Source: Felis catus (lineage: Eukaryota). Taken from it: a DNA stretch of 64,000 bases. Below are positions 3,658 to 62,350 of the stretch, in pieces (the stretch's first letter is position 1; each line of letters begins with the position of its first letter). The position numbers and the translations under genes were made by a program. The stretch covers positions 89,406,001 to 89,470,000 of the forward strand of contig NC_058368.1 of NCBI RefSeq assembly GCF_018350175.1, read 5' to 3'. Under the pieces are notes generated by a model. That model worked only from the letters and a program-made list of their open reading frames with translations. It was not told the origin of the DNA and searched no databases.

Positions 3658-3946
3658 CCCGCCCGACCCGTATAGGCTCTTGCACACTTAGCCACATCTG
3701 CGAGGAGGCGGGCAAGAAATAAAACCCCAATCCTGCAATCCTAGCAGCTACGAGCTGATCTATGTCTCGGCCTTTGCAAAGTGGAAAATGCCTCATGGGC
3801 TTATCCAGGCTGAGACTTAGGCCCGGGTCCGCATGCCCCACCTCGCAGGCGGACGGAGTTTCCCGGGCCGCCAACTCGCGATCCACTGGAAACAACAGGA
3901 GACACGCGCAACCCACTTATCTTTCAACCCCTTGCCCCGCACCTCA

Positions 3947-17480: not shown

Positions 17481-17707
17481 TTTTTTTTTTTTAATTTTTT
17501 TTTTTAACGTTTATTTATTTTTGGGACAGAGAGAGACAGAGCATGAACGGGGGAGGGGCAGAGAGAGAGGGAGACACAGAATCGGAAACAGGCTCCAGGC
17601 TCTGAGCCATCAGCCCAGAGCCTGACGCGGGGCTCGAACTCACGGACCGCGAGATCGTGACCTGGCTGAAGTCGGACGCTAAACCGACTGCGCCACCCAG
17701 GCGCCCC
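17481..17707 (-). mobile_element. Young felid SINE in TRIM52 intron
   Basis: CpG-intact body; TSD TGCTCTGAGGTTT. Confidence 0.93.
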
Positions 17708-18092
17708 TGCTCTGAGGTTTCAAATGTCTATTATGGTTCAAGTACTTAATGGCTTTCCATTCCTATGTGTTAAGGGTCTTGGAGTCTTGGTCAGGTACAC
17801 CCTCAGTACTCAACAGAGTGAAATTTGGTACTAGGGACATGCCACTGATACTCAGATTGAAAGGGAATAACAACAGTGGTCAGCTTTGGTGCCTCTGCTC
17901 AGCTTCCTTTGGGGAAGCCAATCAGCCTCAGCCATTGTGTCTCTTGTCCACATATGCCCATCTCTCTCCACTACTGTGCCCTTATCTCTCACAAAAAAGA
18001 TTCAACTAGCAAGTATCTGCCTCCCAGCTGCCCTTGTTTTTCTCTCCGCTCCCCTCACCCCCCCATTTTCCTTCCCCCCTTGTGCCTCTCAC

Positions 18093-18911
18093 CTTGTACT
18101 CCTGCACCACCTCCTCCATTGGCACCACGCTGTGTTGTTTGTGGGTCCTGGATTCTCGGCACACCACACAGATAGCCTCTTTGTCCACTTCACAAAAAAG
18201 TTTCAGGGCTTCCTGGTGTTTGGAGCAGATGCCCTGATCATTCCCCCGACTTCCTCGATAAGGAGTGGGGCTCATCTGGCGAATTATCTGGACCATGTTG
18301 GCTAGCTGCAAGTTGGGACGAAAGCTGCGACGCTTAAAGCTCTTTCGGCACTGGGGACAGATGAACTGACGTGGAGGGGGCGGAGGAGGGGGTGGAGGTG
18401 GAGGAGGAGGAGGTAAGTGGGTGTCAGGATACAGCTCTTCCTCGTCCTCGTATTCTTCCGATATCTCCTCTTCTGGGTAGACGTCAATTCTCAGGTCATG
18501 TCTCAAGCTTCCCAGGTAATAGTCCTGATCTTCCTCCTCTTCTTCCTCCTGGTCCCACACATAGTCCATGTTGTCCCAATTTCTGATGCCACCGTCACCA
18601 ACCCAGAGTTCATCTTCTTGGTCCTGGAACACCTCGTCAGCACTGCCCTGGTACAAAACCTCTCGAATAGAGTTGTCCCATCCACCGGTGGCCCCCTCCA
18701 CATCGTCGTCCTCGTCTTCTTCCCATCCATCTTCTTCCCCGTCCCTGTCTTCCTCATCTTCCTTGCCCCACAGTTGGGTCACACATCCTCGGCAGAAGTT
18801 GTGCCCACAGCCTATGGAAACGGGATCCTTGAAGTAATCCAGGCAGATGGCACACACCGCTTCCTCCTGAAGGGTCTGCATGGGGTTAGGAGTAGTGGCA
18901 CAGCCAGCCAT
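18093..18911 (-). CDS. TRIM52: TRIM52 main coding exon: RING split by a very long acidic loop, then B-box
   Basis: [27 protein letters not shown]...CGHNFCRGC [D/E-rich loop] CPQC...[38 protein letters not shown] donor after QEYK at 18092; adjacent to RACK1 as in other mammals. Confidence 0.95.
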
Positions 18912-18949
18912 TTTAATGCGCAGCCTGGAGGTGTGGATGCGTCAACTCC

Positions 18950-28766: not shown

Positions 28767-28831
28767 TCAGCAGAGCAGCTGAGCAGCCTCCACGCTCATT
28801 GGGTTTTGGGAATTATGAGGCTCCTCTCCAC
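28767..28831 (-). CDS. MHC-I-like terminal coding exon (GGEEPHNSQNPMSVEAAQLLC*)
   Basis: Acceptor CTTTCTCCCTGCAG; in-frame TGA at 28769-28767. Confidence 0.68.
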
Positions 28832-31800
28832 CTGCAGGGAGAAAGTAGGGAGGTGATCCAGACTGCTCCCCAGCCCTCTCCCAAACTCAGCAGTGGCTCA
28901 ATGGAGTGCTCCCTGCCCCCTCCACCTGGCTCCCAGATGGTGGGAGGGAGCAGAGGGTGAGGGATGAGGCCATGCTGGAGACTGAAAGCTTCCACCCACC
29001 ACCCTGCCTCCATTTTTGGTTTTCAGGCATCTTAGCCATGCTTGGGAGCACCTGGGGCTTCCTCTCCCCAACCCACCCATCCCACAATCACCTGGGGCTT
29101 GTTTGCAAGATTCCTTATTCCTGGCTATGGGAAAAAGAACACAAAAGGAGAGACTAGGTGGGTGGTAGGCAGAGGTGGGGGTCCCAGGTACCCACCTTCC
29201 ACTCCCTCTCCCCCTCTCGGGTCTTTTGAAGGTCAATCCTAGTGGTCTTCCCTGGCTGTGTGATCCACAGTGTCTTTAGGGCAATGTATGGCTATTGGGT
29301 GTGGGTACTTGGGCTTTTCCACAGATGGGGACAGGTGTTCAATAGTAGTTGCTTCTTCCCAAGAGAGAACAGTTCTGGTGGAAGGGATGGGAGCAGAGCA
29401 TTCCTCCCTATAGGGTTGAGCTGGCTGTGAGGACCCTCCACCACTTTTTTTTTTCTTCCCTACCTACCTTGAGAGTACTGCTTGATGAAAGTCAAAACTC
29501 CAGCCACCAGCAAGAAAGTGATGGTGAAGATGATGGAGATAACCTTGGCACTGGTTATCCACTGATGAGAGGGTGCTTCTAAGGACGGCAGAGAAAAGGG
29601 GGCACCAGCCCCATGCCATGGGACTGTCTCTGGGTTCCCTGGGACCCTCCCCTGCTCCTCCCCATCCCCTCTACCAAGCCCATCTCCTCACCCCAGGCCA
29701 CAGTGAGTGTATGGTTCAAGCTGGAGTGCTGCACATGGCAAATGTACCCATTCTCCATCCTGGCTGGCACCCGCACGGCCGCCCATGTCTGGTAGGTACC
29801 GTCTCCACCGGGGCGTGTCTCCACATACTCGGTCTCTTGAACCAGTTCCTCCTCCCCCAGCCACCAGCTCAATGAGATGTCCCGTGGGTAGAAGCCCCGG
29901 GCCCAGCATCTCAGTGTGATGCTCCCATCCTCAGCTGTGTGTCTTGTCACTTGCACTTTGGGCGGCTCTGCAGAGAGAGGTTGAGGGAGGAAGGCTGGTG
30001 AGAAGCTGCTCTCTGCTCATTCCTCATGCCTGATCCTGGGCTGCTCTAGCATTTTCCAGGGTGGAGGACACCCCTTCTACCCACAGAAACCCTGTGGCTT
30101 TCTCAGAGACTTTACATACTTCCTCCATGACTTCTTGCACATGATAGGTGTCTAACAAGAAGTGAAAGCAAGAATGATGGTCCTTCCCTCACTTTGGAAG
30201 GAGGTGGTCATGTGTGTAGCTCTGGAGCCAGACAGCCTGGAATTGAAGCCCAGCCTGACTCCTGTCCACAATCCTCCAGTCTCTCAGGGCCGGATAGGGA
30301 TTCTTTGTTTTTTCCTCTCAGGATTGTTCCAAATGACATAATCCGTGAGTGATGGTTCATTTTATGTGTCAACTTTACTGGACCACACTGTGCCTAGGCA
30401 TTTGCTCAAGCATTACTCTGGGTGAGATTCACATCTGCATCAGTAGACTCAGTAAAGCAGATTGCTGTCCCCAATGTGAGTGGACTCCATCCAATCACTT
30501 GAAGATCTGAACAGGGCAAAAAGTCTGAGTAAGAAGAAATACCTTCAGCTGGGGCATCAGTCTTTTCCTGACTATAGTTTCAAACTGAAACATTGGCTCC
30601 CTTAGGTCTCCAGGTTTGCCAACTGCAGATCTTGGAACTCCCGAGCTTCCACAATCACATGGGCGGATTCCTTAAATATGTCCCTTTCTCTTTCTCTCTC
30701 TCTAAACACATCCTGTTGGTTCTGTTTCTGTGGAGATTCCTGATGAATTCATCAGGTGATATGTGTGTAGAACATCCCCCTGCTGCTGGATGAGAGCTCA
30801 ACACTCATTTAAAACACCAATATGGTGCTTCTTGGAGGCAGGGGCTATTGTTACCATCCCTGTAATACTAATGAGGAAACTCAGGCACAGAAAGGGCAAG
30901 TAACTTGCCCAAGGTCACACAGCTAGCCAGTCCTGGAGCCAGGACGTGGATCTGCAGGCTAGGCTCCAGTACCTGAGCCCTGACCACCGCCCCACCCACA
31001 CACACTCTACTCTCATAATCACATCTTCTCTTGATGTTATTTTCCCTGCCTTACCTTCAAGGAATGTCCTCCCCATTGCCTCAGCTGATTCACATCCCAC
31101 CAGTCCATCACCGAACATCCATGTTGTGTTGAGTGTTCTGACCAGCCCTACCCACTAGTAGCCAGTGAGGCCTCTGCCTCAGCACCCCCATGCACCCACC
31201 TTCCCTAGGGTCCATCCTAGTCCTTGTATCTCCAGCCCTGCTGGCTGGAGTCAAGAATTTAGGATGCACCTGGAGTCTGAGGAGCATGTTTAGCATGAGG
31301 GGTGTGGGGACAAAGAGCCTCAGCTTCCCTGGCAGTCCCCAGTAGTCCAGGGACTGGCCTAGTGATGGATGCTATCCCCTGGGGCCTGAGGTCCATTTCC
31401 CAAAGAGAACCACAGGATGTTAAACGCGCAAAGGACTTTATGAGCCAACTAGTTTAACCTACTTATTCTATAGATGAATAAAATGAGGCCCAGAGTCAGA
31501 GCCTCATTCACCAAGACCATATCATGGGGCATGAACTCCCCATTCTACCTCACCTGGAATGAGGGCCCAAGGTCCAAGCTTCTGTGCTGCCCTACTTGAG
31601 GAAGCTGTTGGCTAGTCAGCCTTCTTTCTGGGGCCAATTGGGCTTGTCTGAGCCAGGGAAACACAGCCTATCTCCTCACCCCGCCAAGATCCTCGAGAAC
31701 GGGAGTGTGGGCCCCTCTGTGTTGCCACAGGCTGCACCTTACCTTTCCGGGTGAGGCTCTGGCTGCCCAGCTCCAGGTACCTGTGCAGGGAAGTGAGGCA

Positions 31801-34800
31801 GAGGCCCTCCAGGTAGGCCTTGTCGTATTCGGCATAGCAGCGCTCTGTTTCCCACCAACGCTTGGTCTGCACAGCCACAGGCTTGGCTGACACCCAGCTC
31901 AGAGTCTCCAGGTCCAGTGACAGGTGGTCCTGGCCATCAAAGCCAAACTGCCAGAAGCTGCTGGTACAGCCGTCTTCCCGGATCTCACAGCCGAACGTTC
32001 GCTGAGTGCTGTGTGTGCCTGTGCATGTGGGCAAGCAGGCTGCGGTTTGCCTGGGCTATAGGTCGTATCCCTGAGGCTGGGGAGAAGCCCACCACCCATG
32101 GGTGCCTCTGAAGGATGGGAGGGGGTCAGAGTGGTGCCATTTACAAAAAATGCTCCCTGGTTAATTTTCATGAGCAGGCCAGGGCTGAGAAACCCGTTGG
32201 GCTTCTCACGTGAGAACACTTGCATACATAACTACAGGCATTGTTATTAGGAGGAAAACTCTGCTACTTATGGAAGTAAGATGTCCTTAAAATACACTCG
32301 TGGTAAGATGAAATCACACCCCAATTTCAGAGATGTGAAAGAGATGTTAAAATGTGAACCTGGCTGCTGCCACAGCACCTGGGGGCTGGTCATGCTTATT
32401 ATTCTGGGGCCCCTGGGCTAATGTATAGCTTGTCCCAGCCTTGGGCTTTTAAATCTACTCCCTCTGAGGCATCTGGGACCTGAGGCTTCAGTTTGGGTTT
32501 CCAGGGACAGGATGGGAAAGGGCTGAGAACAAGTGCCCCACAAGCACACATGCAGCATTAGCAGCAGCCATCAGTAGGCATGAGCTAGCCTTTGCTGAGA
32601 TAAGGAAGCAGAAGCCTGAGAGAATGCTATACCTAACACTGGGTAGAGCAGGGGTTTTTAACTAGGTTCTCTTTCCCACCCTGAGCTGTCTGCCTAGTTC
32701 AAGTTCATTTGGCTTCCCTCCCTGCATGGCAGAGTTGGTGTCTGAGAGCCTGGTGGGTGGGTGTGATTTAAGTGTTTGGTGAGGATGAGGGATGAGGTAG
32801 GGAAAAGCCTCTGCCTCTGCCAGTCTGCTGAGGTCTGGAACCATGGGTAGCTGAAGGGGAGGTGTTGTGAGTCCCTAACTTCTGTGGATGCTTGCTGTGC
32901 TAGCCCAATGGGCTGGCCACTGGAGCCACAACTTATTCTGAAGGCCCCTATGGCCCCTGCTTGGTCCTTGTGGTGGGAAAGCTATGCATCAGGAGCATGC
33001 CTTGTACCCTCTTATGGGCTCAGTGGAGTGACCTCTGTTCCCAACTGGAAGGGCATGGCTGCCCAGAGGGTCAGCATGCAAAGTATGAAGGAAGGAGGAT
33101 GTGGGGTGGCAGGAGCCTCTGACGCACCACTGCTCTGGTTGTGGTAGCCCATCACAGTCCATGTCTCCACCTGCTGCACCTTTGCCCAGGCTCTCTGCTT
33201 CTGGGTCTCTGTTTCCCAGTACTGGGTGTCCACAGCTGCCATCCACGGGGCCTGGGGCTTGGCTCTGTCCACACGACTGTCATAATGGATGAAAGGCTGG
33301 TCGTCCACGTAGCCTACAGCCAGAAACTGAGGAAGGTCCGGGCCTGGCTCTGATAGGGCCAGGTAGTGGTAGTGGAGAGAGTGTGTCCCTGTGAAGATAT
33401 GAAACAATAAGGCTCCTATGCACTGCCAGGATCTGCACCACAGGTTGGGTGACTGATGGGATTGGCGGTGGAAACCTATCCAGAGTATTTGCTTATCAGT
33501 AAGAGCAAGAACTGAGAATTTCAGTTAAGAAAATAAGTGTATCCAAATAGTTCAAATAAAGAATCAATCAATCAGGCAAGCAAGCAAGCACTGAGGCCAA
33601 AGTTTATTTGCTCAGGCTTGTGGACTTTATTTTTAGGAAGTTTCTCAGCTCCTGACTCAGGCTTACTTGCTCATGCTTTACACTCATCTCTGTAAGTATG
33701 ATTACTGTTTTTCCGTCTCACAATAAAAAAGGTATCATTAAAAAAAATTGATTGTTTTTAAGCTTAATTTACGTGAAGTTATTCATTCCCCAGAGATGCC
33801 TGATGAAGCTGAGCCATCACTCCTGGTTTGAACCATTGCTGCCAAGTTGGTGGCATCTTGACTGCACTCTCCACTTACTCCTGTTCCCGTAGCAGACAGT
33901 GCTAGTCATCTCTTCTCTTTATGTCCAAATGCTGCCCTAATATTTGTTCTCCACTATCTCCAGAAGCACCAACTCATCCATTCAACTTGATGCTGGAGAT
34001 GAAATCTATTTAGCAGCCAGGCCTGACTCAAGCTACGAAAACAAATGCTGTATCTTTAAAAAAAAAAACCTCAGTCCACCTTTCTCAGAGATTCACCCAG
34101 GGCTTACTCCCTTAATTTTTTAAAAGGTCTTGCTCAGGAGGCGCCTAGGTGGCTCAGTCGTTTAAGCATCCGACATCAGCTCAGGTCATGATCTCATGGT
34201 CCGTGAATTCGAGCTCCGTGTCAGGCTCTGTGCTGACAGCTCAGAGCCTGGAGCCTGCTTCAGATTCTGTGTCTCCCTCTCTCTCTCTGCCCCTCCCCCA
34301 TTTGTGCTCTGTCTCTCTGTCTCAAAAATAAATAAACATTAAAAAAAAAAAACAACAGGTTTTGTTCAAATGCTGCTTTCCCAGTAAAGCCTTCCTTGCC
34401 CACTCTGTTAAATACTTACAACCCCAGCACTCCCAACAGTGTTTTTCTCTAGGGCATTATTACCACCTCCTAGAGAACATGCACTTTTTCTGTTTATCTT
34501 GTTCATAGTCTGTCTCTCCCCTGTAACATCCATTCCCCAAGGCCAGAGATTACTGTAAGGATCATTCTCCTGGGGCACCTGGGCTGCTCAGTCGGTTAAG
34601 CATCCTACTCCTGATTTTGGCTCAGGTCATGATCTCATGGGTTCATGGGATTGAGCCCTGTGTTGGGCTCTGCACTGACAGCATGGAGTCCACTTAGGAT
34701 TCTCTCTCCCTCTCTCTCTGCCTCTCGCTTGTGCTCTCTCTTTCAAAATAAAAAAAAAGGGGGCGCCTGGGTGGCGCAGTCGGTTAAGCATCCAACTTCA

Positions 34801-35708
34801 GCCAGGTCACGATCTCGCGGTCCGTGAGTTCGAGCCCCGCGTCAGGCTCTGGGCTGATGGCTCAGAGCCTGGAGCCTGTTTCCGATGCTGTGTCTCCCTC
34901 TCTCTCTGCCCCTCCCCCGTTCATGCTCTGTTTCTCTCTGTCCCAAAAATAAATAAAAAACGTTGAAAAAAAAAATTAAAAAAAAAATAATAATTAAAAA
35001 AAAAAAAAAAGGATCATCCTTCTTTCCCAGCCTGCAACAGCTGCTGGCACACAACAGGTGGTTAACATTTGAATATTCAGATATGAAGGGATGAGTCAAA
35101 TGCATCCCCATCCTCACAACTCCTTCTGCTATTTTATAACCACATCAAACTCTGCCCAGGCGCTTTGTACCTGCAGTTCCTGCTGCTCCCTCTCTTCTCT
35201 CGGCCAATGTCTCCTCAGCCCTCAGGTTTGAAGGTCAGCATCCCTTCCTCCAGGAACCCCTTCTGATTCCACCCAGACATCCCTCAGGGGTCTCTGGGCT
35301 CCCTATGAAACTGTGGGCTTCATGAAGGCGGGCAATACATCTGACTGTGCCACTAGTGTTTCCACGGGTCTTGGAAGAACACCATGCTTGGCATACAGTG
35401 GACACTTCCAGCGTTTACTGAGTTGGACAAAAAACAAGAACATGAAGGGCAATGATGATGATCAGAGCTGTCAGTTTTGGACAGTGACCACTGTGTGCCC
35501 TACACCAGTCTAACTGCTTTTCATTCACCATCTCAGCTGATCCTTAGGATAAACCCGAGAAGTTGATGTGATTGGCCCTGTTTCTCAGATGAGGGAACTG
35601 AAGCCCAGGGGAGAGCAAGTACAGCACCCAAAGTCGTAACTAGAAAGGGAAGAGCCCAGATTCTCTCCCCAGAGCCTGCTTTTTCTTTCTTTCTTTTAAA
35701 TGTTTATT

Positions 35709-35749
<41 letters not shown>

Positions 35750-38700
35750 GAGCAGGGAGGGGCAGAGAAAGATGGAGACACAAGCCGAAGCAGGCTCCAA
35801 GCTCTGAATTGTCAGCACAGAGCCTGATGTAGGGCTCGAACTCATGAACTGTGACATCATGACATAAGCCGAAGTTGGATGCTTAACCGAATGAGCCACC
35901 CAGGTGCCCCAAGCCTGCTTTTTCTAAGCTTAGGAAGAATACAGAGGAGCCCTCTTCTCACACTGATGAAACCTCCTTATGGGAGGTGAGAGGGATCAAC
36001 GTTGAAAGTGTTTGAGTGAAGAACTGATACCAGGTCTGGACTGGTGTGGGCCTCCTGGGAAATGACTGAGTCTCAGGGTGTTGTTTCCTTGCAAACCACT
36101 GAGTTAAGATTAGTGGGATGCTCCTGGGCTGGGAGCTGTAAACAGGCATGCAGGCCTTGAAAGGAAGAGAGGTTGTGGCTTCTCTATGTTAAGGTGACCC
36201 ACCTTCTCCTTGGCTGTGATCTGCAGAAGCTCTGCTTGTTTGTGGGGTGACGGAGGGCAAAGAGCCTGTGCCCTTGGGTAGCTGCTGGGCCTCCTGAGTG
36301 GTGGGGAAGCCATGCATGTTGTAGTTTCTGTCCTGCCTCCTCCACAACTAAGGGAACACAGTATGGTAGCTGAATCATGCCCCCCACTCCCACAAGATAT
36401 CCCTAGAACCTATGAATGTTACCTTATATAGTAACAGGGATTTTGTAGGTGTGATTAAATTAAGGATCTTGAGCTTAATGATGATTGTAAAAAAAGATAA
36501 TAAAAAAGGTTAAAAAATAAAATAAATAAAAAATAAAAAGAAATAAAAAATTAAGGATCTTGAGATGGGGAGATTATCCAGGATTATCTAGGCAGGCCAT
36601 AAATGTGTTGTTATGAAACGGAGACAGAGGAAGATTCCATGACTATCAGAGAAGATAATGTGAAGATGGAACAGAGAAAGAGGCAGGAAGGTGCCATGAG
36701 CCAAGGAATGCAGCTCTAGAAGCTGGAAAAAGCAAAGAAATGGATTCTTCCTGAGAGCCTTTGTAGGGAGCTTTCCTGTGGTACCTTAGTTTTAGCCCAG
36801 TGAAGCTCATTTTGGACTTCTGACCTTCAGAAATCTAAGAAAATAAATGTATGTTGTCTTAAGCTACCAAGTTGTGGTCCCCCCCCTTTTATTTTAAATT
36901 TTGTTTTAATGTTTATTTATTATTTTTGTGAGAGAGACAGAGTGCGAGTGGGGGATGGGCAGAGAGAGAGGGAGACACAGAATCTGAAGCAGGCTCCAGG
37001 CTCTGAGCTGTCAGCACAGAGCCGGACGCAGGGCTCGAACCCATGAACAGTGAGATCATGACCTGAGCCCAAGTCAGACGCTTAACCAACTGAGTCATCC
37101 AGGCACCCCGTGGTCCCCTTGTTATAGCAGCTATAGAAAACAAATACATATAACATGAGACTAAAGTCTGTTGTGTCTTGTGAGTTTGGTGAGCAGTTCA
37201 AACCCATGAGCTCTGGAGGTTCTGCTGCCCTGAAAAGGAGAGAAAGATGCACAGTCTGGGAAGAGAGATGTCCTCTGAAAGCTGTGCCAGTCTTTAAGCT
37301 GCCACTAAGACTGAGGCCTGGGGAACGCAGAGTGAGGGTGCAGGGACCCTGGTATTCCCACCACTGAAGGAAAGAGGCCGCACAGGTGCTGACATGCTCT
37401 TTCCTAGGTGTGGGAAGGTGGGAAAGAACAAGAGATCCAAGTTCAGGCCTGCAGGAAAGACACCAACACACATCTGGTTGTTTCGTTGGGGCAAGTGCAC
37501 AATTTGCTTCCTAGGTAACATTTCTATTTATTAATATTAGCTGCTCAGTAGCCAGTTACTTTAGTTTAAAAAATGAGGGGAAGTCTATCAATGTATTATT
37601 TTTTAAAATCACAAAATAGTTATAAAGCACTTAGGTGCTGGGCCCTGTCCCGAGCACTTTACAAAATTTTGGCTCCATTAACCCTCATGACAATTTTATC
37701 GGGCAGGTATTGTGCCACTACTGTTCCTGTCTATGGGGAAACTGAGCCCCAAAGAGGCAAAGTCAACTGCCAAGCTCACACCAGTAGCAAAAAGCAGGGC
37801 CAGACTGCATTATTCAGATTCTCAAGGTGTCCCCTGGCCTGCACCTGCCCTTTAGTGAACACATTATAAAGACTAACAGTGTGTGGCTGGCTGGGGGCAC
37901 AAAAGTGGCCACATGCCCACTGCTACCTCAGGCTCTGTGTCATCATCCACCCCTTCCCTCACTGCTGATTCCTGGTTACTGGGCCACATTACCCACCCCT
38001 CCCACCCCCCACACACAAAAGGGGCAGTCCTGCCCTCTTATGCACAGCCTCCCTTTTTCTCTGACTATGGTGGGGAATGAGGTACCCTACCCCTTTCCTG
38101 CCCCAATCTCTGTAGACGTTTTTGTATCTGCCCCACCTCCCTACAATCCATGTGGATTACAACTCTCTAGCTGTGTGACCTTATTTCACAGCTTCCGGCT
38201 TTGGTTTCTTCCTCTGTGACCTGCTCCACTGGAGCATTTGGTGAGGTAAATAAACACAAAGAAGTATAGGCATGGAGGAAGGGTTCTGTGGACATCATTT
38301 TCTTCGCCTTAGTTCTTTCCTATCTGGTAGGGAGAGGTGGGCATGGGAAAAAGAGAGCTGGAGTACGGGGGGGATGAGGGTGGGGAAAGATACCTAAGCG
38401 AAGCCCCCCTGGGGTACCTTCCAGACGGTATGGCCTCTGTGTCCCCTACCTAAGCAAAGACAGTCTACCAGGGTCCCAGACTGTACATGCCCTTCTGTAA
38501 GCTTGGGGGGTGTGGGGGGGGAGCTCCTGGTCTCTGCCATCTTGCCTTCTTTTTCATCATTTGGGCAGAGCCTTACCTCCAGGCCATGGCTTGTTTTCTA
38601 ACTTCAGGTCAGCCAGTTCTGCCATCACCACCTTTGCTAAGGAAGCTGGGCCATCAGCTACCACAGGCAGCCCCCAGGGACTCTCTGCATGGGGGAGAAG

Positions 38701-41700
38701 GAAAAGGGAAATATGAATCTCAAGGCATAAACATCCTACACATCCTTGTCTCTGCTTGGAGAGATGGTATGAAATGACAAAGAGAGGCACATTGGAAGGG
38801 AAGAGGGACATTGGAGCCTTGCCTCAGGAATGACCAGAAACTTCCTTAGCATGCAAGTATAAAACCAAAAGGGCTGAGTTCTGGGTCTTGGTGCCAGAGC
38901 TTTATAAGGATTAATTCATGACATTTTTACTGCATTTTTGCGAGGTAGGCTGTTCCCACTTAAGAGGGAAGCCAGGGCTGGGTTGCTCATACCTCTGCCA
39001 GAGGTTTTCCAACCAGCTGCCCCTGTACCTCCTGGCAGCTTTGACAATTCTGCTACGGACACACATTTGGTTGGTTTGGAGGGAAGAGGAGAGGACATTA
39101 GCAGGCACTGAAACCTCCCAGGTAATGCTCATGTGCTGCCAGGTGAAGAGCCCATGCCCTCTTGGCTCTGCCTGGCCCTGCCCAGCTTTGTACACTTGCT
39201 CACCTGGGCCAGTCCTGACCTCTCCCCTTGTGACATTACTCATTTGGCAAACATCTGTTGAGCCCCTACTACTATGAGCTAGGCACTGAGCTAGGTGGGG
39301 GTGTGTGTGGGGACAGAGAGAAACCAAGACAGACATGGGCCCAAGGAAGCTCAGGTCTGACAAGGAGGTGGCAATTGAACAATTAAATAAGTAGGTCCAA
39401 TAAGGTGAGCAGGGCTGATGAGCGTTGTGGTGCAGGAAGTACCAGGCTCCAGAAACACCCTGGGGTGGGAATGTGCTGGGGTCAGGGGCCTTATAGGCTG
39501 AAACATGGAGGGGATCTCACCAGCTGTGAGTTACCAGGCAGTGGAGTTGGTGAGGAGGAAAGAACATTCTAGGCTAGTGAATCTAGTGTGGTTCCAGGAC
39601 CAGCTGTATCAACATCACCTAGGAATTTTCTAGAAATGCAAATTTGCAGGACCCAACCTAGCCCTACTGAATCAAAAGCTCTGGGGGTGGGGTCCAGCTT
39701 TCTTTAGTTCAACAAGTCCTCTAAGGTTTGGGCCACTCCAAACTTCCCTGCTGCAGCACTCATGATAACTGCCCCATGAAAGCCACTTCCTCATTCCCTA
39801 GCTTCTAAAGGGAAAGACTGGCATCCAGGAGTGTTGTGAGCAGGCAGCCAAAAACCTCTGGCTACCTCCCCTCTGTGTGCCATCTCCCTCCTACAGTTTG
39901 GTAAACCCCGGGGTTATCCTCCACTCCTTTCCTCCTCTTTGGTTTGGAGTCCTGTCTCCCTAAGTCAATCCCGGCCATTCCCTACAAAGGCTACAGGGCC
40001 TTTGTGCCCACACTCATGACCATTCCTGCCACGCAGAACTAGAATCACCCATATGCCCCTGTATCACACCTGAGGACTTGGGGGTGCTGTAAGTAGAATC
40101 TCTAGAGGCTGTATGTAACTTGAAAACCAAGACTGGTTATACAATCTTGGCCCAGAGACACAGTGGCCCATGCCCTTGGGGTCACTATTCCAAGGACCAA
40201 ACTCTTCCCCAATCTTCTTCCCAGACATCCAAGCTGATTCTCCTTCAAGTGTTTTCCATGTGGGGAGCTGAGGGCTGAATCCTTCTGTAGATGCATCCTG
40301 TTGAGTTTGGGAGCCTCAACTTGGAGGGAAAAAAATAACCTCTTTATTTTCACTAACCTCTGGCTGAAATTTAGCTTTTCTCTCATGATGAATGAAGGCA
40401 ACAAAGCTCAGCAGGATTAGCAGGGTCTGTGCTTTGTTCTCAGACAGAAGCCACAGGTGTTTTTGAATCACAATCCAGTTGTTGCAGACACCTGGAAATA
40501 TGCTTTAATCTCACTACTTACAAATTCTGGGAATTGTTGCTATTCAGTGCGTTATTAAACGTGTTAACTTAGAAGCATACATTCTACATCTCACACATTT
40601 ATATTTCTATTTAAAAGATTTTAATAGCTTTGTAGAAACAATCAGATTCCTTTGTAACCTTATATATTTCATTTTATGTATTGAAAACATTCTGGGACCG
40701 GGTCTAAGGCATAGAAAAGGTTAAGAATTCCGACTTTTGGGGCTCCTGGGTGGCGCAGTCGGTTAAGTGTTGGACTTAAAAGCTCAGGTCATGATCTCAC
40801 GGTTCCTGGGTTCCAGCCCTGCATCAGGCTCTATGTTGACTGCTCAGAGCCTGGAGCCCACCGCAGCTTCTGTGTCTCCCCCTCTCTCTCTGCCCCTTCC
40901 CCGCTCATGGTCTCTCTCTCCTTCAAAAATAACATTAAAAAAAAAAAAAAAAAAAAAATCCGACTTTTGATCCTGCCACCTAGCGTCCTGAGCCGTACAT
41001 TAAATCTGTAAACAGTAAATTGAGAAGTGTTCTGTGAGTTGAAATGGCTTCTTGTATGTGAAGTACTTAAAATAGAGCCTGGCGTAAGGGTGACCAGCTA
41101 TTGTTACTTCTATGATGGTGGACATTTCCCCGCCTGTGCTAATAAATGTTCGGGTATACATGCGGCCCGGATGGGCAGTGCCCTATGGGAGCCGGGGGCG
41201 GGGTGGGGGAGTCCAGGATGATGTCAGGCCCAGCTACCAATGCTGGAAGAATTAAAATTGGGAAAGAATGGAAATTCCTGACCAGGTCAGAGAAATCTTC
41301 CTCACCCAACAACCCACGCCAGGGGATGCTCGGGTAACCCAACAGAGCCTCGCTAAGGCTCCAGGGAGACTACCGCGAAGGGCGGGCGCCTGCCCCAGCT
41401 AGATAGCAGGGGAAGTGCCAGCCGCTCTCACATTCCTGACTCCACAAGGGCTTCACCAGGGCCTTGTTGGAGGACCTGGCCCCAGAAACCGAGTGGCGTC
41501 CAACAGATGTGCCCAAGGGCACCCCCAAGAAGGTATGGCATCGGCTGCGTCCCAGGCCGGGGTCACCGCCAACACCCCACGTCCCGCCGGTTTCCCGTAT
41601 ACTCTAATCCATATCCCGGTGTAACCGTGGGAGCCAGCAAACAGGAGCTCTAACGCAGGGCCTAGCGTCTCCTACAATCCTGGGTCGGCTCTCCCACCAT

Positions 41701-41867
41701 CCTCGTTCCCCACACCCGGAAGTGGCCTATCTCTCCCTGCCTCCCCCAGCCCCACCCGCGCTCTGCTGGGCAACGATTGGGGTTCTGCCCCTGGCCCCCA
41801 GACTCTCCGCCCAGTCACCTGCCGTGAGCTCCCGCAGTAGCGACAGCAGTTGCAGCAGCAGCAGCAT
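28767..41867 (-). CDS. Non-classical MHC class I-like heavy chain, 7 coding exons, 356 aa (MR1/ZAG/HFE-like; candidate MHX lineage)
   Basis: join(41867-41819, 33388-33128, 32018-31743, 29967-29692, 29578-29468, 29124-29092, 28831-28767) = 1071 nt; open frame; all introns GT-AG and phase 1 as in class I genes. Confidence 0.88.
29092..29124 (-). CDS. MHC-I-like cytoplasmic exon 1 (ARNKESCKQAP)
   Basis: Strong acceptor TTCTTTTTCCCATAG, donor GTGATT; 33 nt, the same size as exon 6 of classical class I genes. Confidence 0.72.
29468..29578 (-). CDS. MHC-I-like transmembrane exon (EAPSHQWITSAKVISIIFTITFLLVAGVLTFIKQYSQ)
   Basis: Manual translation; ~20-aa hydrophobic stretch; polypyrimidine-AG acceptor and GTAGGT donor; 111 nt. 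Confidence 0.88.
29692..29967 (-). CDS. MHC-I-like alpha3 (Ig C1-set) exon
   Basis: EPPKVQVT...TLRCWARGFYPRDISLSW...TRPGGDGTYQTWAAV...YICHVQHSSL; 276 nt; AG acceptor, GTGAGG donor. Confidence 0.96.
30345..30750 (+). mobile_element. MLT2-like (ERVL) solo LTR in the MHC-like alpha2-alpha3 intron
   Basis: GTGATGGTTCATTTTATGTGTCAACTT start and TTGGTTCTGTTTCTGTGGAGA end motifs. Confidence 0.65.
31743..32018 (-). CDS. MHC-I-like alpha2 exon
   Basis: GTHSTQRTFGCEI...FGFDGQDHLSLDLETLSW...YLEGLCLTSLHRYLELG; 276 nt; canonical Cys pair; GTAAGG donor. Confidence 0.95.
33128..33388 (-). CDS. MHC-I-like alpha1 exon
   Basis: [38 protein letters not shown]...PWMA...YWETET...GYHNQSS; TTCACAG acceptor, GTGCGT donor; 261 nt; NQS glycosylation site at the canonical class I position. 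Confidence 0.95.
34137..34352 (+). mobile_element. CAN-SINE
   Basis: Canonical head and tail. Confidence 0.9.
34572..35010 (+). mobile_element. Two head-to-tail CAN-SINEs (younger one starts in the A tail of the older at ~34759)
   Basis: Two GGGGC(A/G)CCTGGG heads; outer flanks share AGGATCAT. Confidence 0.9.
35682..35910 (-). mobile_element. CAN-SINE with expanded (GA)n
   Basis: TSD AGCCTGCTTTTTCT. Confidence 0.9.
36358..37155 (+). mobile_element. MLT1 (MaLR) LTR with nested SINE and short retro-insert
   Basis: GATGGGGAGATTATCCAGGATTATC, GAGCCAAGGAATGCAG, TTTGGACTTCTGACC and GTTATAGCAGC motifs. Confidence 0.7.
36886..37109 (-). mobile_element. CAN-SINE inside MLT1
   Basis: TSD GTGGTCCCC. 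Confidence 0.9.
40738..40958 (+). mobile_element. CAN-SINE
   Basis: TSD TCCGACTTTTG. Confidence 0.9.
41819..41867 (-). CDS. MHC-I-like gene leader exon (MLLLLQLLSLLRELTA/G)
   Basis: ACAATG start, Leu-rich signal peptide, phase-1 donor GTGACT joining in frame to GTHSL of alpha1; lies in a CpG island downstream of TATA/CCAAT boxes. Confidence 0.75.
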
Positions 41868-42169
41868 TGTCCGCGGCGGCGTCCAGACGTGCGCGCTCCC
41901 GACGACCGCCAGCCGGTGTCCGCCAGCCTTGCGCGCGTCCCTAGGGCGTCGATTTCCCCGGAGTCGGTCTTCAGCTGTGGGGTCGGTGGTCTGGCGCCAA
42001 CCGCGGAGAGCGAGAGAGCTCAGCTTTGGGAAGGCAGCGCATCAGCGACCTCAGCCCGCCTCGCTCAGCTGGAGTTCCAGCCCGGCCCCTTCAGCCTCGG
42101 GCTCCGGCTCCCAAGGCCATTGTCACAGCTTCCCCCACTCCCCCGCGTTGTCCCCCACAGCTCCTCGAC

Positions 42170-42220
42170 GGTCCCCTTTATATATACATAGGAAAACCAA
42201 TCGTGTTGGTAATTGGCCAG
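42170..42220 (-). promoter_or_regulatory. TATA and CCAAT boxes of the MHC-I-like gene promoter
   Basis: Minus TATATATAAAGGGG (42186-42173); CCAAT at 42197-42201 (+) and 42216-42212 (-); at the edge of a CpG island ~41100-42170. Confidence 0.65.
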
Positions 42221-44004
42221 TGAGGATCACCTGGTTTCAAGGGTGTTTAAAGGTCAGAGGACTTCTGCCACTCCTGCTACACCGTGTGCCCATAGTAACC
42301 TGAAAGTGGAACTGGGGGTGCAGCACCTGCAGCATCAGGAGGATGTGTCCAGACGTGCAGAGAAGCATGGCTCTGATCACTTCCAACTGGAGGACAGCAG
42401 TACAGCATCAGCAACAGCCTGGACATGAGGGTACCCTGGCTGGAAGTTCTGGAGAGGGGAGAGACAGGCAGTCTGGCCTCCTCAGACTCTTGCCTGCCCT
42501 GTTCTGCAATCCCACATCTCTCCCTCTTCTTTCTTCTCTTTCTCTTCCTTCACTTTCCACCCTGGGCTCTACAGAGAGGTTCCTACAGGCCTGCGTGTGT
42601 CACTAGGCAGGTATATCTCAGCTCCTCCTTGGATACAGTCTCCACTGTCGCTCACTTCTAGTAGCTGAGTCTGGTGTCTGGAGACTCCTACCAGGTCATG
42701 TCTCCATGTACTCTGTATCTTGGGTCATCTCTTTCCTGTCTAGTAGTCATCCAAGCATGGTATCTTGAGGGAAGGAGCCAAGAGCTCAGGCTTTAAAATG
42801 GTTTCTTCTACATCTTGGTGAGTGTGTGCATATATGCATGGTCACCTATGCTGATGGAGAACTGGAGTGGAGCAGAAGAAATGAAGTTAAGGTGAGGCAG
42901 AGACTGGAGGGGCTACCCTGGAGCTTTACTCCTCACTCCCATAAACTGGAAAATGGGGGGCTGGATTAGGAGAAACCACTTCCAGAGCTAGACTATTTTC
43001 TGAGTTCCTGACCCCTATTAAGGCTGTGGCCCACATGCCAGGTTAAAGGAGGAGTGAGGAGTTAGAGCTGGCTGCTCAAATAACCAACATCATTCATTAC
43101 AGCTTCAGTATAGTTGGAAACAAACCCAAAGTACATCTGTGGAGGCTGGCTGCATATGTAATGACACATTATGGATGTAGGTACAGTATTTGTCATGAAA
43201 CAATGAGAATGCTCTATGTATGGACATGGAAAGATCTCCATCAATTGTGAGAGTGAGTGTCTGTTATGTTACTTCTTCGGGCAAAAATAAGAATTCCTAT
43301 TTATTTTCTTATATATGCATAGGGGAATTATATAAAATATTTGGACAAGAAATTAAAGCCAACATACAAAGAAGACTTATACCATATTCACAGATCAGAA
43401 GCTTCACTAGCTGTCAGTTCTCCTCAAGTATTCTTTTAAAAATATGTCCTCTAATTTTATTTTTTTGCTCTTTTAAATTTGAGTATAATCAGACAATGCT
43501 TTTTAGTTTCAGAGGTACAACATAGTGATTTGACAAGTTTATATATTATGCTGTATTCCCAAGTCCCCACACATTGCTATTACAATATCACTGCATTTAT
43601 TCCTTATGCTGTGCCTTTTATTCCTGCAACTCATTCATTTTATAACTAGAAGTCTGTATCTCCCTCTCCCCTTCACCCATTTTGTTCAACCTCCTACCCC
43701 CCGTCCCTCTGGTAACCATCAGTTTGTTTATGTATTTATAGGTTTGATTCTACTTTTTATCTGTTTATTCATCTTTATTTTTTAATTCTTTTTTTTTTTT
43801 TTTTTTGGAAAGAGAGAACGAGTGCATGAGTTAGGAAGAAGGGCACAATGTTATGCAACCTCTATTTAGTTCTAAACAATTTCACCGGAAATGTTCCAAA
43901 ACATTTCCATCACCTGAAAAGGAAACCCTGTACCCAGTTGCAACTGTTAAACATTTGCTCCTACTTTCTGCCTCCCCTTGACACTGGTGACCACTTGTAT
44001 TTTT

Positions 44005-48937: not shown

Positions 48938-51151
<2,214 letters not shown>

Positions 51152-56714: not shown

Positions 56715-58214
56715 TATTTACTTTTTATTTTTTATTCTTTTTAATTTAATCTTTTATTTTTTAAAATTTACATCCAAATTAGTTAGCATATAGTGCAACA
56801 ATGGTTTCAGGAGTAGATTCCTTAGTGCCTCTTACCCATTTAGCCCATCCCCTCTCCCACAGCCCCTCCCGTAACCCTCAGTTTGTTCTCCATACTTATG
56901 AGTCTCTTCTGTTTTGTCCCCCTCCCTGTTTTTATATTATTTTTGTTTCCCTTCCCTTGTGTTCATCTGTTTTGTCTCTTAAAGTCCTCATATGAGTGAA
57001 GTCATATGATTTTTGTCTTTTTCTAACTGACTAATTTCACTTAGCAAAGTACCCTCTAGTTCCATCCATGTAGTTGCAAATGGCAAGATTTCATTCTTTT
57101 TGATTGCTGAGTAATACTCCATTGTATATATATACCACATCTTCTTTATCCACTCATCCATCGATGGGCATTTGGGCTCTTTCCATACTTAGGCTATTGT
57201 TGATAGTGGGGTGCATAAACATTGGGGTGCGTGTGTCCCTTCGAAACAGCACACCTGTATCCTGTGAATAAATGTCTAGTAGTGCAATTGCTGGGTCATA
57301 GGGTAGTCCTATTTTTAGTTTTTTGAGGAACCTCCATACTGTTTTCCAGAGTGGCTGAACCAGCTTGCATTACCACCAACAATGCAAAAGATATCCTCTT
57401 TCTCCACATCCTCGCCAACATCTGTTGTTGCTCGAATTGTTAATGTTAGCCATTCTGACAGGTGTCAGGTGGTATCTCATTGTGGTTTTGATTTGTATTT
57501 CCCTGATGATGAGTGATGTTGAGCATTTTTTCATGTGTCGGTTGGCCATCTGGATGTCTTCTTTGGAGAAGTGTCTATTCATGTCTTTTGCCCATCTCTT
57601 CACTGGATTATTTGTTTTTTGGGTGTTGAGTTTGATTACTTGTTTACAGATTTTGGATACTAACCCTTTATATGATATGTAGTTTGAGAATATCTTCTCC
57701 CATTCCCCTGGTTGCCTTTCAGTTTTCCTGATTGTTTCCTTTGCTGTGCAGACGCTTTCTATTTTGATGAGGTCCCAATAGTTCATTTTTGTTTTTGTTT
57801 CCCTTTCCTCTGGAGACGTGTTGACTAAGAAGTTGCTGCGGCCAAGGTCAAAGAGGTTTTTGCCTACTTTCTCCTCGAGGATTTTGATGCTTCCTGTCTT
57901 ACATTGAGGTCTTTCATCCATTTTGAGTTTATTTTTGTGTATGGGGTAAGAAAGTGGTCCAGGTTCATTCTTCTGCATGTTGGTGTCCAGTTTTCCCAGC
58001 ACCACTTGCTGAAAAGACTGTCTTTATTCCATTTGATATTCTTTCCTACTTTGTCAAAGATTAGTTGGCCATACGTTTGTGGGTCCATTTCTGGGTTTTC
58101 TATTCTGTTCCATTGATCTCAGTGTCTGTTCTTGTGCCAGTACCATACTGTCTTGATAACTACAGCTTTGTAGTGTAGCTTCAAGTCTGGGATTGTGATG
58201 CCTCTTGCTTTGGT
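56715..58214 (-). mobile_element. Older carnivore L1 3' portion, abutting the poly(A) of the young L1
   Basis: Degenerate ORF2 C-terminus (57370-58088 ORFs, GYLLHCWW) and 3'UTR; ends at the young L1 tail. Confidence 0.88.
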
Positions 58215-58474
58215 TTTCTTTTCTTTTTCTTTTTTTTTCTTTTTTTTTTAATATATGAAATTTATTGTCAAATTGGTTTCCATACATCACCCAGTGCTCA
58301 TCCCAAAAGGTGCCCTACTCAATACCCATCACACACCCTCTCCTCCCTCCCACCCCCCATCAACCCTCAGTTTGTTCTCAGTTTTTAACAGTCTCTTATG
58401 CTTTGGCTCTCTCCCACTCTAACCTCTTTTTTTTTTTTTTCCTTCCCCTCCCCCATGGGTTCCTGTTAAGTTTC

Positions 58475-61400
58475 TCAGGATCCACATAAGAGTGAAACCA
58501 TATGGTATCTGCCTTTCTCTGTATGGCTTATTTCACTTAGCATCACACTCTCCAGTTCCATCCACGTTGCTACAAAAGGCCATATTTCCTTTTTTCTCAT
58601 TGCCACGTAGAATTCCATTGTGTATATAAACCACAATTTCTTTATCCATTCATCAGTTGATGGACATTTAGGCTCTTTCCATACTTTGGCTATTGTTGAG
58701 AGTGCTGCTATAAACATTGGGGTACAAGTGCCCCTATGCATCCGTACTCCTGTATCCCTTGGATAAATTCCTAGCAGTGCTATGGCTGGGTCATAGGGTA
58801 GGTCTATTTTTAATTTTCTGAGGAACCTCCACACTGCTTTCCAGAGCGGCTGCACCAATTTGCATTCCCACCAACAGGGCAAGAGGGTTCCCGTTTCTCC
58901 ACATCCTCTCCAGCATCTATAGTCTCCTGATTTGTTCATTTTGGCCACTCTGACTGGCGTGAGGTGATATCTGAGTGTGGTTTTGATTTGTATTTCCCTG
59001 ATAAGGAGCGACGCTGAACATCTTTTCATGTGCCTGTTGGCCATCCGGATGTCTTCTTTAGAGAAGTGTCTATTCATGTTTTCTGCCCATTTCTTCACTG
59101 GGTTATTTGTTTTTCGGGTGTGGAGTTTGGTGAGCTCTTTATAGATTTTGGATACTAGCCCTTTGTCCGATATGTCATTTGCAAATATCTTTTCCCATTC
59201 CGTTGGTTGCCTTTTAGTTTTGTTGGTTGTTTCCTTTGCTGTGCAGAAGCTTTTTATCTTCATAAGGTCCCAGTAATTCACTTTTGCTTTTAATTCCCTT
59301 GCCTTTGGGGATGTGTCGAGTAAGAGATTGCTATGGCTGAGGTCAGAGAGGTCTTTTCCTGCTTTCTCCTCTAAGGTTTTGATGGTTTCCTGTCTCACAT
59401 TCAGGTCCTTTATCCATTTTGAGTTTATTTTTGTGAATGGTGTGAGAAAGTGGTCTAGTTTCAACCTTCTGCATGTTGCTGTCCAGTTCTCCCAGCACCA
59501 TTTGTTAAAGAGACTGTCTTTTTTCCATTGGATGTTCTTTCCTGCTTTGTCAAAGATGAGTTGGCCATACGTTTGTGGGTCTAGTTCTGGAGTTTCTATT
59601 CTATTCCATTGGTCTATGTGTCTGTTTTTGTGCCAATACCATGCTGTCTTGATGATGACAGCTTTGTAGTAGAGGCTAAAGTGTGGGATTGTGATGCCTC
59701 CTGCTTTGGTCTTCTTCTTCAGAATTCCTTTGGCTATTCGGGGCCTTTTGTGGTTCCATATGAATTTTAGGATGGCTTGTTCTAGTTTCGAGAAGAATGC
59801 TGGTGCAATTTTGATTGGGATTGCATTGAATGTGTAGATAGCTTTGGGTAGTATTGACATTTTGACAATATTTAATCTTCCAATCCATGAGCAGGGAATG
59901 TCTTTCCATTTCTTTAAATCTTCTTCAATTACCTTCATAAGCTTTCTATAGCTTTCAGCATACAGATCCTTTACATCTTTGGTTAGATTTATTCCTAGGT
60001 ATTTTATGCTTCTTGGTGCAATTGTGAATGGGATCAGTTTCTTTATTTGTCTTTCTGTTGCTTCATTGTTAGTGTATAAGAATGCAACTGATTTCTGTAC
60101 ATTGATTTTGTATCCTGCAACTTTGCTGAATTCCTGTATCAGTTCTAGCAGACTTTTGGTGGAGTCTATCGGATTTTCCATGTATAATATCATGTCATCT
60201 GCAAAAAGCGAAAGCTTGACTTCATCTTTGCCAATTTTGATGCCTTTGATTTCCTTTTGTTGTCTGATTGCTGATGCTAGAACTTCCAGCACTATGTTAA
60301 ACAACAGCGGTGAGAGTGGGCATCCCTGTCGTGTTCCTGATCTCAGGGAAAAAGCTCTCAGTTTTTCCCCGTTGAGGATGATGTTAGCTGTGGGCATTTC
60401 ATAAATGGCTTTTATGATCTTTAAGTATGTTCCTTCTATCCCGACTTTCTCAAGGGTTTTTATTAAGAAAAGGTGCTGGATTTTGTCAAAGGCCTTTTCT
60501 GCATCGATTGACAGGATCATATGGTTCTTCTCTTTTTTTTTGGTTAATGTGATGTATCACGTTGATTGATTTGCGAATGTTGAACCAGCCCTGCATCCCA
60601 GGAATGAATCCCACTTGATCATGGTGAATAATTCTTTTCATATGCCGTTGAATTCGATTTGCTAGTATCTTATTGAGAATTTTTGCATCCATATTCATCA
60701 GGGATATTGGCCTGTAGTTCTCTTTTGTTACTGGGTCTCTGTCTGGTTTAGGAATCAAAGTAATACTGGCTTCATAGAATGCGTCTGGAAGTTTTCCTTC
60801 CCCTTCTATTTCTTGGAATAGCTTGAGAAGGATAGGTATTATCTCTGCTTTAAACATCTGGTAGAACTCCCCTGGGAAGCCATCTGGTCCTGGACTCTTA
60901 TTTGTTGGGAGATATTTGATAACCGATTCAATTTCTTCGCTGGTTATGGGTCTGTTCAAGCTTTCTATTTCCTCCTGATTGAGTTTTGGAAGAGTGTGGG
61001 TGTTCAGGAATTTGTCCATTTCTTCCAGGTTGTCCAATTTGTTGGCATATAATTTTTCACAGTATTCCCTGATAATTGTTTGTATCTCTGAGGGATTGGC
61101 TGTAATAATTCCATTTTCATTCATGATTGTATCTATTTGGGTCATCTCCCTTTTCTTTTTGAGAAGCCTGGCTAGAGGTTTGTCAATTTTGTTTATTTTT
61201 TCAAAAAACCAACTCTTGGTTTCGTTGATCTGCTCTACAGTTTTTTTAGATTCTATATTGTTTATTTCTGCTCTGATCTTTATTATTTCTCTTCTTCTGC
61301 TGGGTTTAGGCTGCCTTTGCTGTTCTGCTTCTAGTTCCTTTAGGTGTGCTGTTAGATTTTGTATTTGGGATTTTTCTTGTTTCTTGAGATAGGCCTGGAT

Positions 61401-62300: not shown

Positions 62301-62350
62301 TGTGATGTCTGTATGTTTTATGCTTGTAGTGATGTCTCTGGGACTTTGTC

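What the first reader, a model, noticed from the sequence alone, without database searches (positions are those of the whole stretch)
28767..41867. Intact non-classical MHC class I-like gene beside RACK1/TRIM52, in a lineage reported to lack MR1
Seen in sequence: seven minus-strand exons (49, 261, 276, 276, 111, 33 and 65 nt) splice via phase-1 GT-AG introns into an uninterrupted 356-aa membrane protein with leader, alpha1/alpha2 groove, Ig C1 alpha3, TM and tail. The ORF track shows only fragments of it. Alpha1 ([36 protein letters not shown]) looks more like MR1/ZAG/HFE than classical class I. Established knowledge (from memory): carnivores lost MR1 and MAIT cells, and a conserved MHC-I-like gene called MHX, lost in primates and murids, was proposed to pair with an invariant TRAV41 T-cell receptor (Boudinot et al. 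2016). Inference: this is the felid MHX or a sister lineage, i.e. a candidate antigen-presenting molecule of unknown ligand for innate-like T cells that cannot be studied in human or mouse.
Basis: partly seen in the sequence, partly recalled or inferred. Interest (0 to 1): 0.9.

Follow-up and report, generated by a model that had tools for sequence, protein, structure and literature searches.

The report
MHC-like gene with built-in peptide exon
This cat gene encodes an ancient, mammal-wide antigen-presenting-type protein (probably the known MHX), and it has an extra exon, kept from echidna to cat, that may supply the protein's own built-in peptide, which would give a testable answer to what it displays to T cells.

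Summary
A 108-nt in-frame exon (38684-38577) lies between leader and alpha1. The 8-exon, 392-aa product equals RefSeq cat model XP_023109696.1. Orthologues span monotremes and all four placental superorders (clade 100/99); none is a named primate or murid. This genome's MR1 is broken. That fits MHX as recalled, but the paper could not be read. A sister link to MR1 is rejected (AU p 0.013).

The new feature is the 36-aa extension, found in 74 of 110 lineage proteins and 0 of 155 other class I proteins. Its first nine residues are the best-conserved part of the protein. The groove keeps every residue that grips a free peptide N-terminus (42/42) but lacks K146, which binds the C-terminus (0/42).

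Best reading: a tethered self-peptide in its own groove, a natural single-chain peptide-MHC (about 0.45). Modelling gives weak support only (0.54 against best control 0.06), and the AlphaFold monomers did not place it.

The parts
41819..41867 (-). Exon 1, leader peptide (16 codons plus 1 nt), in a CpG-rich stretch
   Evidence: CpG o/e about 0.8 at 41500-42250
38577..38684 (-).
   Evidence: single copy in genome; no PDB hit at E<=10, no usable Atlas hit, no Pfam match over these residues
33128..33388 (-). Alpha1 exon; Y7, Y59, E63, W70, N86 glycan site invariant (HLA numbering)
31743..32018 (-). Alpha2 exon; C101-C164, Y159, Y171, W114, S167 invariant, K146 replaced (mostly W), extra invariant Cys at 151a
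29692..29967 (-). Alpha3 Ig C1 exon
29468..29578 (-). Transmembrane exon
   Evidence: hydropathy peak
29092..29124 (-). 33-nt cytoplasmic exon; the Tyr of the lineage consensus is Cys here
28767..28831 (-). Last coding exon with stop; the only AATAAA/ATTAAA between 28767 and 26000 is at 26878
42574..42842 (-). Degenerate class I alpha3 pseudo-exon (stops and a frameshift) about 700 bp upstream of the ATG; remnant of a second class I gene
   Evidence: 18.3 and 12.3 bits, iE 5.6e-5 and 0.004; reversed-window control best iE 7.8

Best explanation
SHOWN: a single-copy MHC class I-like membrane protein of a lineage older than the monotreme-therian split, encoded beside TRIM52/RACK1. Its usual transcript carries an extra exon that places 36 residues between the leader and alpha1. 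INFERRED: signal peptidase cuts at the exon 1 boundary, as in class I, so the extension's conserved nonamer becomes the free N-terminus. It binds in the protein's own groove, its amino group held by the intact Y7/Y59/Y159/Y171 pocket. Its C-terminal end continues out of the F-pocket end, where the carboxylate-binding K146 has been lost, through a helix and a loose tail (about 27 residues) back to residue 1 of alpha1. The molecule would be a natural single-chain peptide-MHC, folding with beta2-microglobulin without needing TAP-supplied peptide. It would show a near-constant surface, of the kind an invariant receptor could be selected on (TRAV41 T cells, if this is MHX and the recalled pairing holds). 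The tether could also act as a CLIP-like placeholder that is displaced by a foreign ligand, and the exon-skipping form would have an open groove.
For: Extension in 74 of 110 lineage proteins and 0 of 155 other class I proteins (HMM built from the lineage). A placental-only HMM finds it in echidna (E 5.7e-5), and platypus P0314 shows the same motif after its leader. W, L and P of the motif are invariant in 29/29 complete copies. Residues 1-9 are the most conserved segment among 28 placentals (84% mean identity; alpha1 75, alpha2 78.5, alpha3 73, extension tail 66, leader 41); against echidna they are 59% and the tail 10%. The insertions seen fall after the nonamer or at the alpha1 junction (P0012, P0083, P0080, P0061). 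Groove, 42 orthologues: Y7, Y59, E63, Y159, Y171 all 42/42; K146 0/42 (W36, R4, L2). Among 112 other class I proteins, 46 of the 49 that keep all four tyrosines have K or R at 146. Contacts of Y7, Y159, Y171 and E63 with P1-P2, and of Y84, T143 and K146 with the C-terminal end, are tabulated in PMC10093629 (passage). 12 of 19 Logan-assembly proteins carry the extension, on contigs of about 1.3-2.3 kb where shown, against 13 kb of genomic span here; the other 7 run into alpha1 from intron-like sequence and none joins leader to alpha1. Complex prediction, extension against ectodomain: weak support, 0.54 against best of 3 controls 0.06; runs agree in at least 40% of contacts; partner pLDDT at least 38. 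That mark was reached by 51 of 78 solved pairs and 2 of 108 mismatches, but at 0.60 or under by only 5 of 78 solved pairs and all 4 passing mismatches.
Against: Both AlphaFold2 monomers leave the nonamer unplaced: pLDDT under 50 for residues 15-34 of P0001 and 1-34 of P0015. Both still carried leader residues and used only 42 sequences. The complex pass is in the range that is more often wrong than right, gave no contacts (so the groove is not shown to be the site), did not use my alignment, is uncalibrated for peptides, and may echo solved peptide-MHC structures. Y84 (37/42), T143 (41/42) and W147 (38/42) remain, whereas engineered single chains use Y84A to let the linker out (PMC10189100 passage). 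The cleavage site is inferred from exon position, not predicted by a tool. 36 of 110 lineage models lack the extension, and many start at its internal Met. No reads from this species could be laid.
Confidence: 0.45

Rival explanations
1. The extension is a real mature module but binds outside the groove (packing on the platform, a partner or a receptor, or serving as a sorting or propeptide signal as recalled for CD1e). The aromatic groove holds a separate conserved peptide or small molecule, which is the first reader's 'unknown ligand' view.
For: The groove floor is lined by near-invariant aromatics and a basic residue (Y9 40/42, W70 42, R97 38, F99 41, W114 42, Y152 and Y155 42), partly like MR1. 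AlphaFold predicts only the helix of the extension. The complex score does not say where it binds. Y84, T143 and W147 are kept.
Against: It does not explain why an intact N-terminus pocket, loss of K146 and an invariant motif at the exact mature N-terminus occur together. There is no Schiff-base lysine at the MR1 K43 site (Ala 42/42; role recalled). No paired basic cleavage motif is apparent in the extension.
Confidence: 0.33
2. The protein is not an antigen presenter for T cells. It is a class I-fold scaffold (like HFE or FcRn) or an NK-receptor ligand, with the extension and the invariant unpaired Cys151a serving partner binding or dimerisation.
For: Sisterhood with HFE or ZAG is not rejected (AU p 0.25 and 0.12). 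The unpaired Cys is 42/42. No T-cell data were seen, and the TRAV41 link is only recalled.
Against: HFE and ZAG lose part of the A-pocket tyrosines that this lineage keeps. The best tree places it near mammalian classical class I (93/86, unstarred). An intact V gene at the position expected for TRAV41 exists in this genome (name inferred from position and recall, best PDB hits include a TRAV24 chain).
Confidence: 0.15
3. Exon 1b is an alternative or regulatory exon whose main role is to give a leaderless form from its internal Met. The working surface protein is the reader's 356-aa form.
For: The internal Met is kept in 27/29. Many database models start there, and skip models exist in several species.
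Against: The strongest conservation lies upstream of that Met. Ten Logan-assembly proteins show leader residues joined to the extension and none shows the skip.
Confidence: 0.07

Closest known systems
MHX / rabbit MH1Like gene of Boudinot et al. 2016 (PNAS 113:E2983; seen only as a citation in two reviews, content recalled)
   Same: Mammal-wide, highly conserved class I-like gene present in rabbit and not found in named primates or murids; almost certainly this orthologous group.
   Different: Identity with the published sequence was not checked. I recall no mention of an N-terminal extension or tethered peptide but could not read the paper or its supplements.
MR1
   Same: Conserved, single-copy, outside the MHC; same loop lengths; shares Y7, W69/70, R94/97 and an aromatic cleft; many top Foldseek hits are MR1.
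   Different: Sisterhood rejected (p 0.013, one marsupial MR1 row). K43 site is Ala and R9 is Tyr. It has the full peptide A pocket and the extra exon.
Classical MHC class I (FLA/HLA)
   Same: Exon plan, N86 glycan, A-pocket tyrosines, Y84/T143/W147; nearest group in the best tree (unstarred).
   Different: Separate 100/99 clade including monotremes; 44-49% identity; different chromosome from the class I cluster; K146 lost, S167, Cys151a, extension exon; very low divergence among felids.
Engineered single-chain peptide-MHC (peptide-linker-beta2m-heavy chain; PMC10189100 passages)
   Same: Leader, then peptide with a free N-terminus, then a linker leaving the F-pocket end.
   Different: Here it would be natural, germline-encoded, tethered directly to the heavy chain, with K146 rather than Y84 changed. 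It is unproven.
HFE and ZAG (AZGP1)
   Same: Class I fold, same loop lengths; ancient sisterhood not rejected.
   Different: The genome has its own HFE and ZAG elsewhere; 33-44% identity per domain; they lack the full A pocket and the extension.

Membership tests
MHC class I fold | alpha1/alpha2 platform plus Ig C1 alpha3, TM and tail with canonical cysteines | tested here: met
MHC class I fold | beta2-microglobulin association | not testable with these tools
   Interface residues Y27, Q96, D119, G120, D122 largely kept (roles recalled); F8 is mostly His. Binding not tested.
MHX (features recalled from Boudinot 2016) | appeared with mammals | tested here: met
   Echidna and platypus join placentals at 100/99; no non-mammalian member among 132 rows. 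No marsupial member was found.
MHX (features recalled from Boudinot 2016) | present in rabbit and highly conserved | tested here: met
   Rabbit RefSeq/UniRef members in the P0015 cluster; 73-79% mean domain identity across placentals.
MHX (features recalled from Boudinot 2016) | absent from primates and Muridae | tested here: met
   No named primate or murid lineage row (93 rows, 18 without an organism) or (120 of 791 listed). Primate, murid and cricetid rows appear there only at 41-49%. Cluster members are mostly unseen, so absence is weak.
MHX (features recalled from Boudinot 2016) | same sequence and locus as the published gene | not testable with these tools
   Paper not held; no listed paper used MHX for this gene in searches (listings only).
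MHX (features recalled from Boudinot 2016) | restricts invariant TRAV41 T cells | not testable with these tools
   Only co-presence: an intact V gene with a recombination signal at L037:2374-2640, after the last TRAV38-like genes. The name is inferred, and one search did not confirm it.
MR1 | orthology to MR1 | tested here: not met
   AU p 0.013; the true MR1 locus is a separate broken gene at G000:C42:26985631.
MR1 | Lys43 for the ligand Schiff base (role recalled) | tested here: not met
   Ala in 42/42
Classical MHC class I | member of the eutherian classical clade and MHC-linked | tested here: not met
Classical MHC class I | residues binding the peptide N-terminus (Y7, Y59, Y159, Y171) | tested here: met
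   42/42 each; position 167 is Ser 42/42
Classical MHC class I | residues binding the peptide C-terminus (Y84, T143, K146, W147) | tested here: not met
   K146 0/42; Y84 37, T143 41, W147 38 of 42
Classical MHC class I | high allelic polymorphism | not tested
   No population data; alpha1 is 99% identical across felid genera.
HFE or AZGP1 duplicate | recent paralogue nested with HFE or ZAG | tested here: not met
   Own clade with monotremes; only ancient sisterhood remains open.
Natural single-chain peptide-MHC (proposed) | N-terminal extension occupies own groove | tested here: inconclusive
   Weak complex support without contacts; monomer models unplaced; sequence pattern fits.

The most novel reading that the evidence does not exclude
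This lineage is a natural single-chain peptide-MHC. A dedicated exon, conserved since before monotremes and therians split, encodes the ligand that fills the molecule's own groove. An MHC-I-like protein thus carries a germline-fixed antigen (or an in-cis CLIP-like plug) that an invariant T-cell receptor reads, and exon skipping switches between a plugged and an open form.
Probability: 0.4. Interest if true: 0.9.

Novelty: new variant of a known kind. Interest (0 to 1): 0.7.

Why it matters
The gene is in databases under a misleading automatic name and is probably the published MHX, so its existence is not news. Its ligand is, as far as I recall, unknown. The extension exon gives a concrete candidate and changes how the protein must be expressed: constructs that begin at alpha1 or at the internal Met would omit the candidate ligand. 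I know of no natural class I molecule that encodes its own groove peptide. That rests on recall and on failed family and structure searches for the extension; no paper search was aimed at that question directly. If true, it is a further way, beside CD1 lipids and MR1 metabolites, to select innate-like T cells. It would operate in cats, rabbits, pigs, cattle and bats but apparently not in human or mouse.

Tried and rejected
Reading Boudinot 2016: not held under DOI, PMC id or PubMed id; its text and supplements may already describe the locus or the extension. I saw listings only, except for passages of PMC12562908, PMC5002277, PMC6945721 (plus a search of its 3 supplement files, no hit), PMC7804197, PMC10189100, PMC10093629 and PMC6636196; none of these passages names this gene.

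Expression in this species: 24 runs were listed, but no reads were laid, so splicing in cat is not directly shown. Runs that hold over 90% of a mostly intronic stretch look like DNA and are not used as evidence.

dN/dS and polymorphism: no orthologous DNA was available, so protein identity was used instead.

AlphaFold monomers were uninformative on the extension, and no coordinates were available to inspect contacts.

ESM Atlas: no usable hit for the extension, and only generic MHC-I clusters for residues 17-140. A search with the echidna N-terminal region found only 3 monotreme proteins among 321 candidates, so marsupials stay open.

C121 in alpha2 was considered as a partner for the unpaired Cys and rejected: most orthologues have R, S or H there.

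Earlier scan findings had nothing relevant.

Tree rows: 132 and 42 chosen by hand; only one full MR1 and no CD1, MICA, MILL or confirmed UT rows. Left out of the Logan count: fragments P0281, P0321, P0322 and the classical-like P0116.
Full report
Observation. The seven exons splice as stated, with GT-AG phase-1 introns and 356 aa, and match Pfam MHC_I and C1-set at E 5e-25, 1e-22 and 5e-13. The gene is single-copy: other alpha1 matches in the genome are 32-44% identical (15 others). RACK1 (with SNORD95/96) and a TRIM52-type ORF lie downstream. Database models of rabbit, pig, tree shrew and hyena orthologues are misnamed after, or fused to, RACK1 or TRIM52, which points to conserved synteny.

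A missed exon. Homologues carry 36 extra residues between leader and alpha1. In the window these come from exon 38684-38577, with AG/GT ends and phase 1/1. The 8-exon product is 392 aa and identical to RefSeq cat XP_023109696.1. Of 19 proteins from Logan assemblies, 12 carry the extension, 7 run into alpha1 from intron-like sequence, and none joins leader to alpha1. The carriers' contigs, where shown, are about 1.3-2.3 kb, so they must be spliced RNA, here from other mammals. Skip forms exist as RefSeq models in five species.

What lineage. An alpha1 search gave 93 hits of 100 candidates: 91 lineage rows (70-99% identical where near-fully covered) from carnivores, bats, artiodactyls, whales, insectivores, pangolin, lagomorphs, squirrels, tree shrew, xenarthrans and afrotherians, plus two gecko proteins; 18 rows show no organism. 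The full-length search added echidna and platypus at 51-52% and reached primate, murid and cricetid proteins only at 41-49% (120 of 791 listed). IQ-TREE on 42 ectodomains joins monotreme and placental members at 100/99. Their nearest neighbours are mammalian classical class I and a platypus class I gene (93/86, unstarred). Sisterhood with MR1 is rejected (p 0.013); with HFE or ZAG it is not (0.25, 0.12). The genome has separate HFE, ZAG, FcRn and ULBP-like genes (names by recalled likeness). It also has an MR1 remnant (15 of 15 PDB hits are MR1) lacking both alpha2 cysteines, with a frameshift and a stop, as reviews report for carnivores (PMC5002277, passages). This pattern matches MHX as recalled from the Boudinot 2016 abstract; I put identity at about 0.85. 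The paper was not readable, and the TRAV41 link is untested. An intact V gene lies where TRAV41 is expected, but the PDB search did not name it.

The extension. It occurs in 74 of 110 stored proteins at least 50% identical to the ectodomain and in 0 of 155 others. The cut-off admits a few fragments and drops one fused tree-shrew model. A placental-only profile detects it in echidna, and platypus has it too. It has no match in PDB, Pfam, the Atlas or elsewhere in the genome. Its first nine residues, which start at the exon-1 boundary where class I leaders are cut (inference), average 84% identity among 28 placentals, above every folded domain (73-78.5%), and 59% to echidna, where the tail falls to 10%. 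The insertions seen lie after the nonamer. AlphaFold predicts a helix at residues 35-47 of P0001 but leaves the nonamer below pLDDT 50 in both models.

The groove. Numbered on a macaque class I chain, all 42 orthologues keep Y7, Y59, E63, Y159 and Y171, with S167. At the other end Y84 (37), T143 (41) and W147 (38) remain but K146 never does, whereas 46 of 49 other class I proteins with the four tyrosines have K or R there. The floor is aromatic (Y9, W70, F99, W114, Y152, Y155) with R97. The MR1 K43 site is Ala. An unpaired Cys at 151a is invariant and unexplained.

Mechanism. A pocket for a free N-terminus, loss of one carboxylate anchor and an invariant motif at the mature N-terminus followed by a loose 27-residue link fit a self-peptide tethered in cis. 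This resembles engineered single-chain designs (PMC10189100, passages). The complex prediction gave weak support: 0.54 against best control 0.06, runs agreeing in at least 40% of contacts, partner pLDDT at least 38, no contacts given. Passes at 0.60 or under came from 5 of 78 solved pairs and all 4 passing mismatches, and peptides are uncalibrated. Retained Y84 and the unplaced monomer models count against. I give the tether 0.45, binding outside the groove with a separate ligand 0.33, a non-T-cell role 0.15 and a merely alternative exon 0.07.

Context. In chicken, RACK1 and TRIM genes are listed with TAP1 on chromosome 16 (PMC7804197, passage), the MHC chromosome (recalled). A decayed alpha3 exon sits just upstream of this gene. 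The locus is therefore plausibly a displaced relic of the ancestral MHC (inference).

Verdict. The gene is real and probably known; the extension exon and tether hypothesis appear new, subject to the unread paper. New variant of a known kind, interest 0.7.

Noticed in passing
window 42842-42574 (-): Decayed class I alpha3 exon just upstream of the gene; no other class I exon remnant was found in the window.
   Followed up: partly
G000:C42:26985631-26985789 (L029): MR1 alpha2 remnant with both cysteines lost, a frameshift and a stop; no alpha1 or alpha3 remnant detected in the 9.9 kb fetched.
   Followed up: partly
L037:2374-2640 (+): Open TCR alpha V exon with recombination signal, at the position expected for TRAV41; name not confirmed by a tool.
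   Followed up: partly
window 29124-29092 (-): The cytoplasmic Tyr of the lineage consensus is Cys in felids, badger and panda; this may alter endosomal trafficking in carnivores.
   Followed up: no
window 32018-31743 (-): Invariant unpaired Cys at 151a (42/42), and a second Cys at HLA 108 found in cat and jaguarundi but not tiger or leopard cat.
   Followed up: partly
P0062, P0063, P0066, P0067, P0014 (sloth); P0048, P0064, P0095, P0097, P0099 (hedgehog): Several distinct lineage proteins per species suggest duplications in sloth and hedgehog.
   Followed up: no
P0110 (aardvark), P0171 (horse): A separate conserved class I clade (100/100) sister to classical class I; not identified.
   Followed up: no
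window 18006-18941 (-), 17618-17702 (-), 2377-2455 and 3593-3660 (-): TRIM52-type RING/B-box ORF with an acidic insert and a long poly-Pro run; a tRNA-Ala call; SNORD96 and SNORD95 in RACK1 introns.
   Followed up: no
window 49000-51000 and 57300-63400: LINE-1 copies, one near full length with ORF1 and ORF2 pieces on the minus strand (identity recalled).
   Followed up: no
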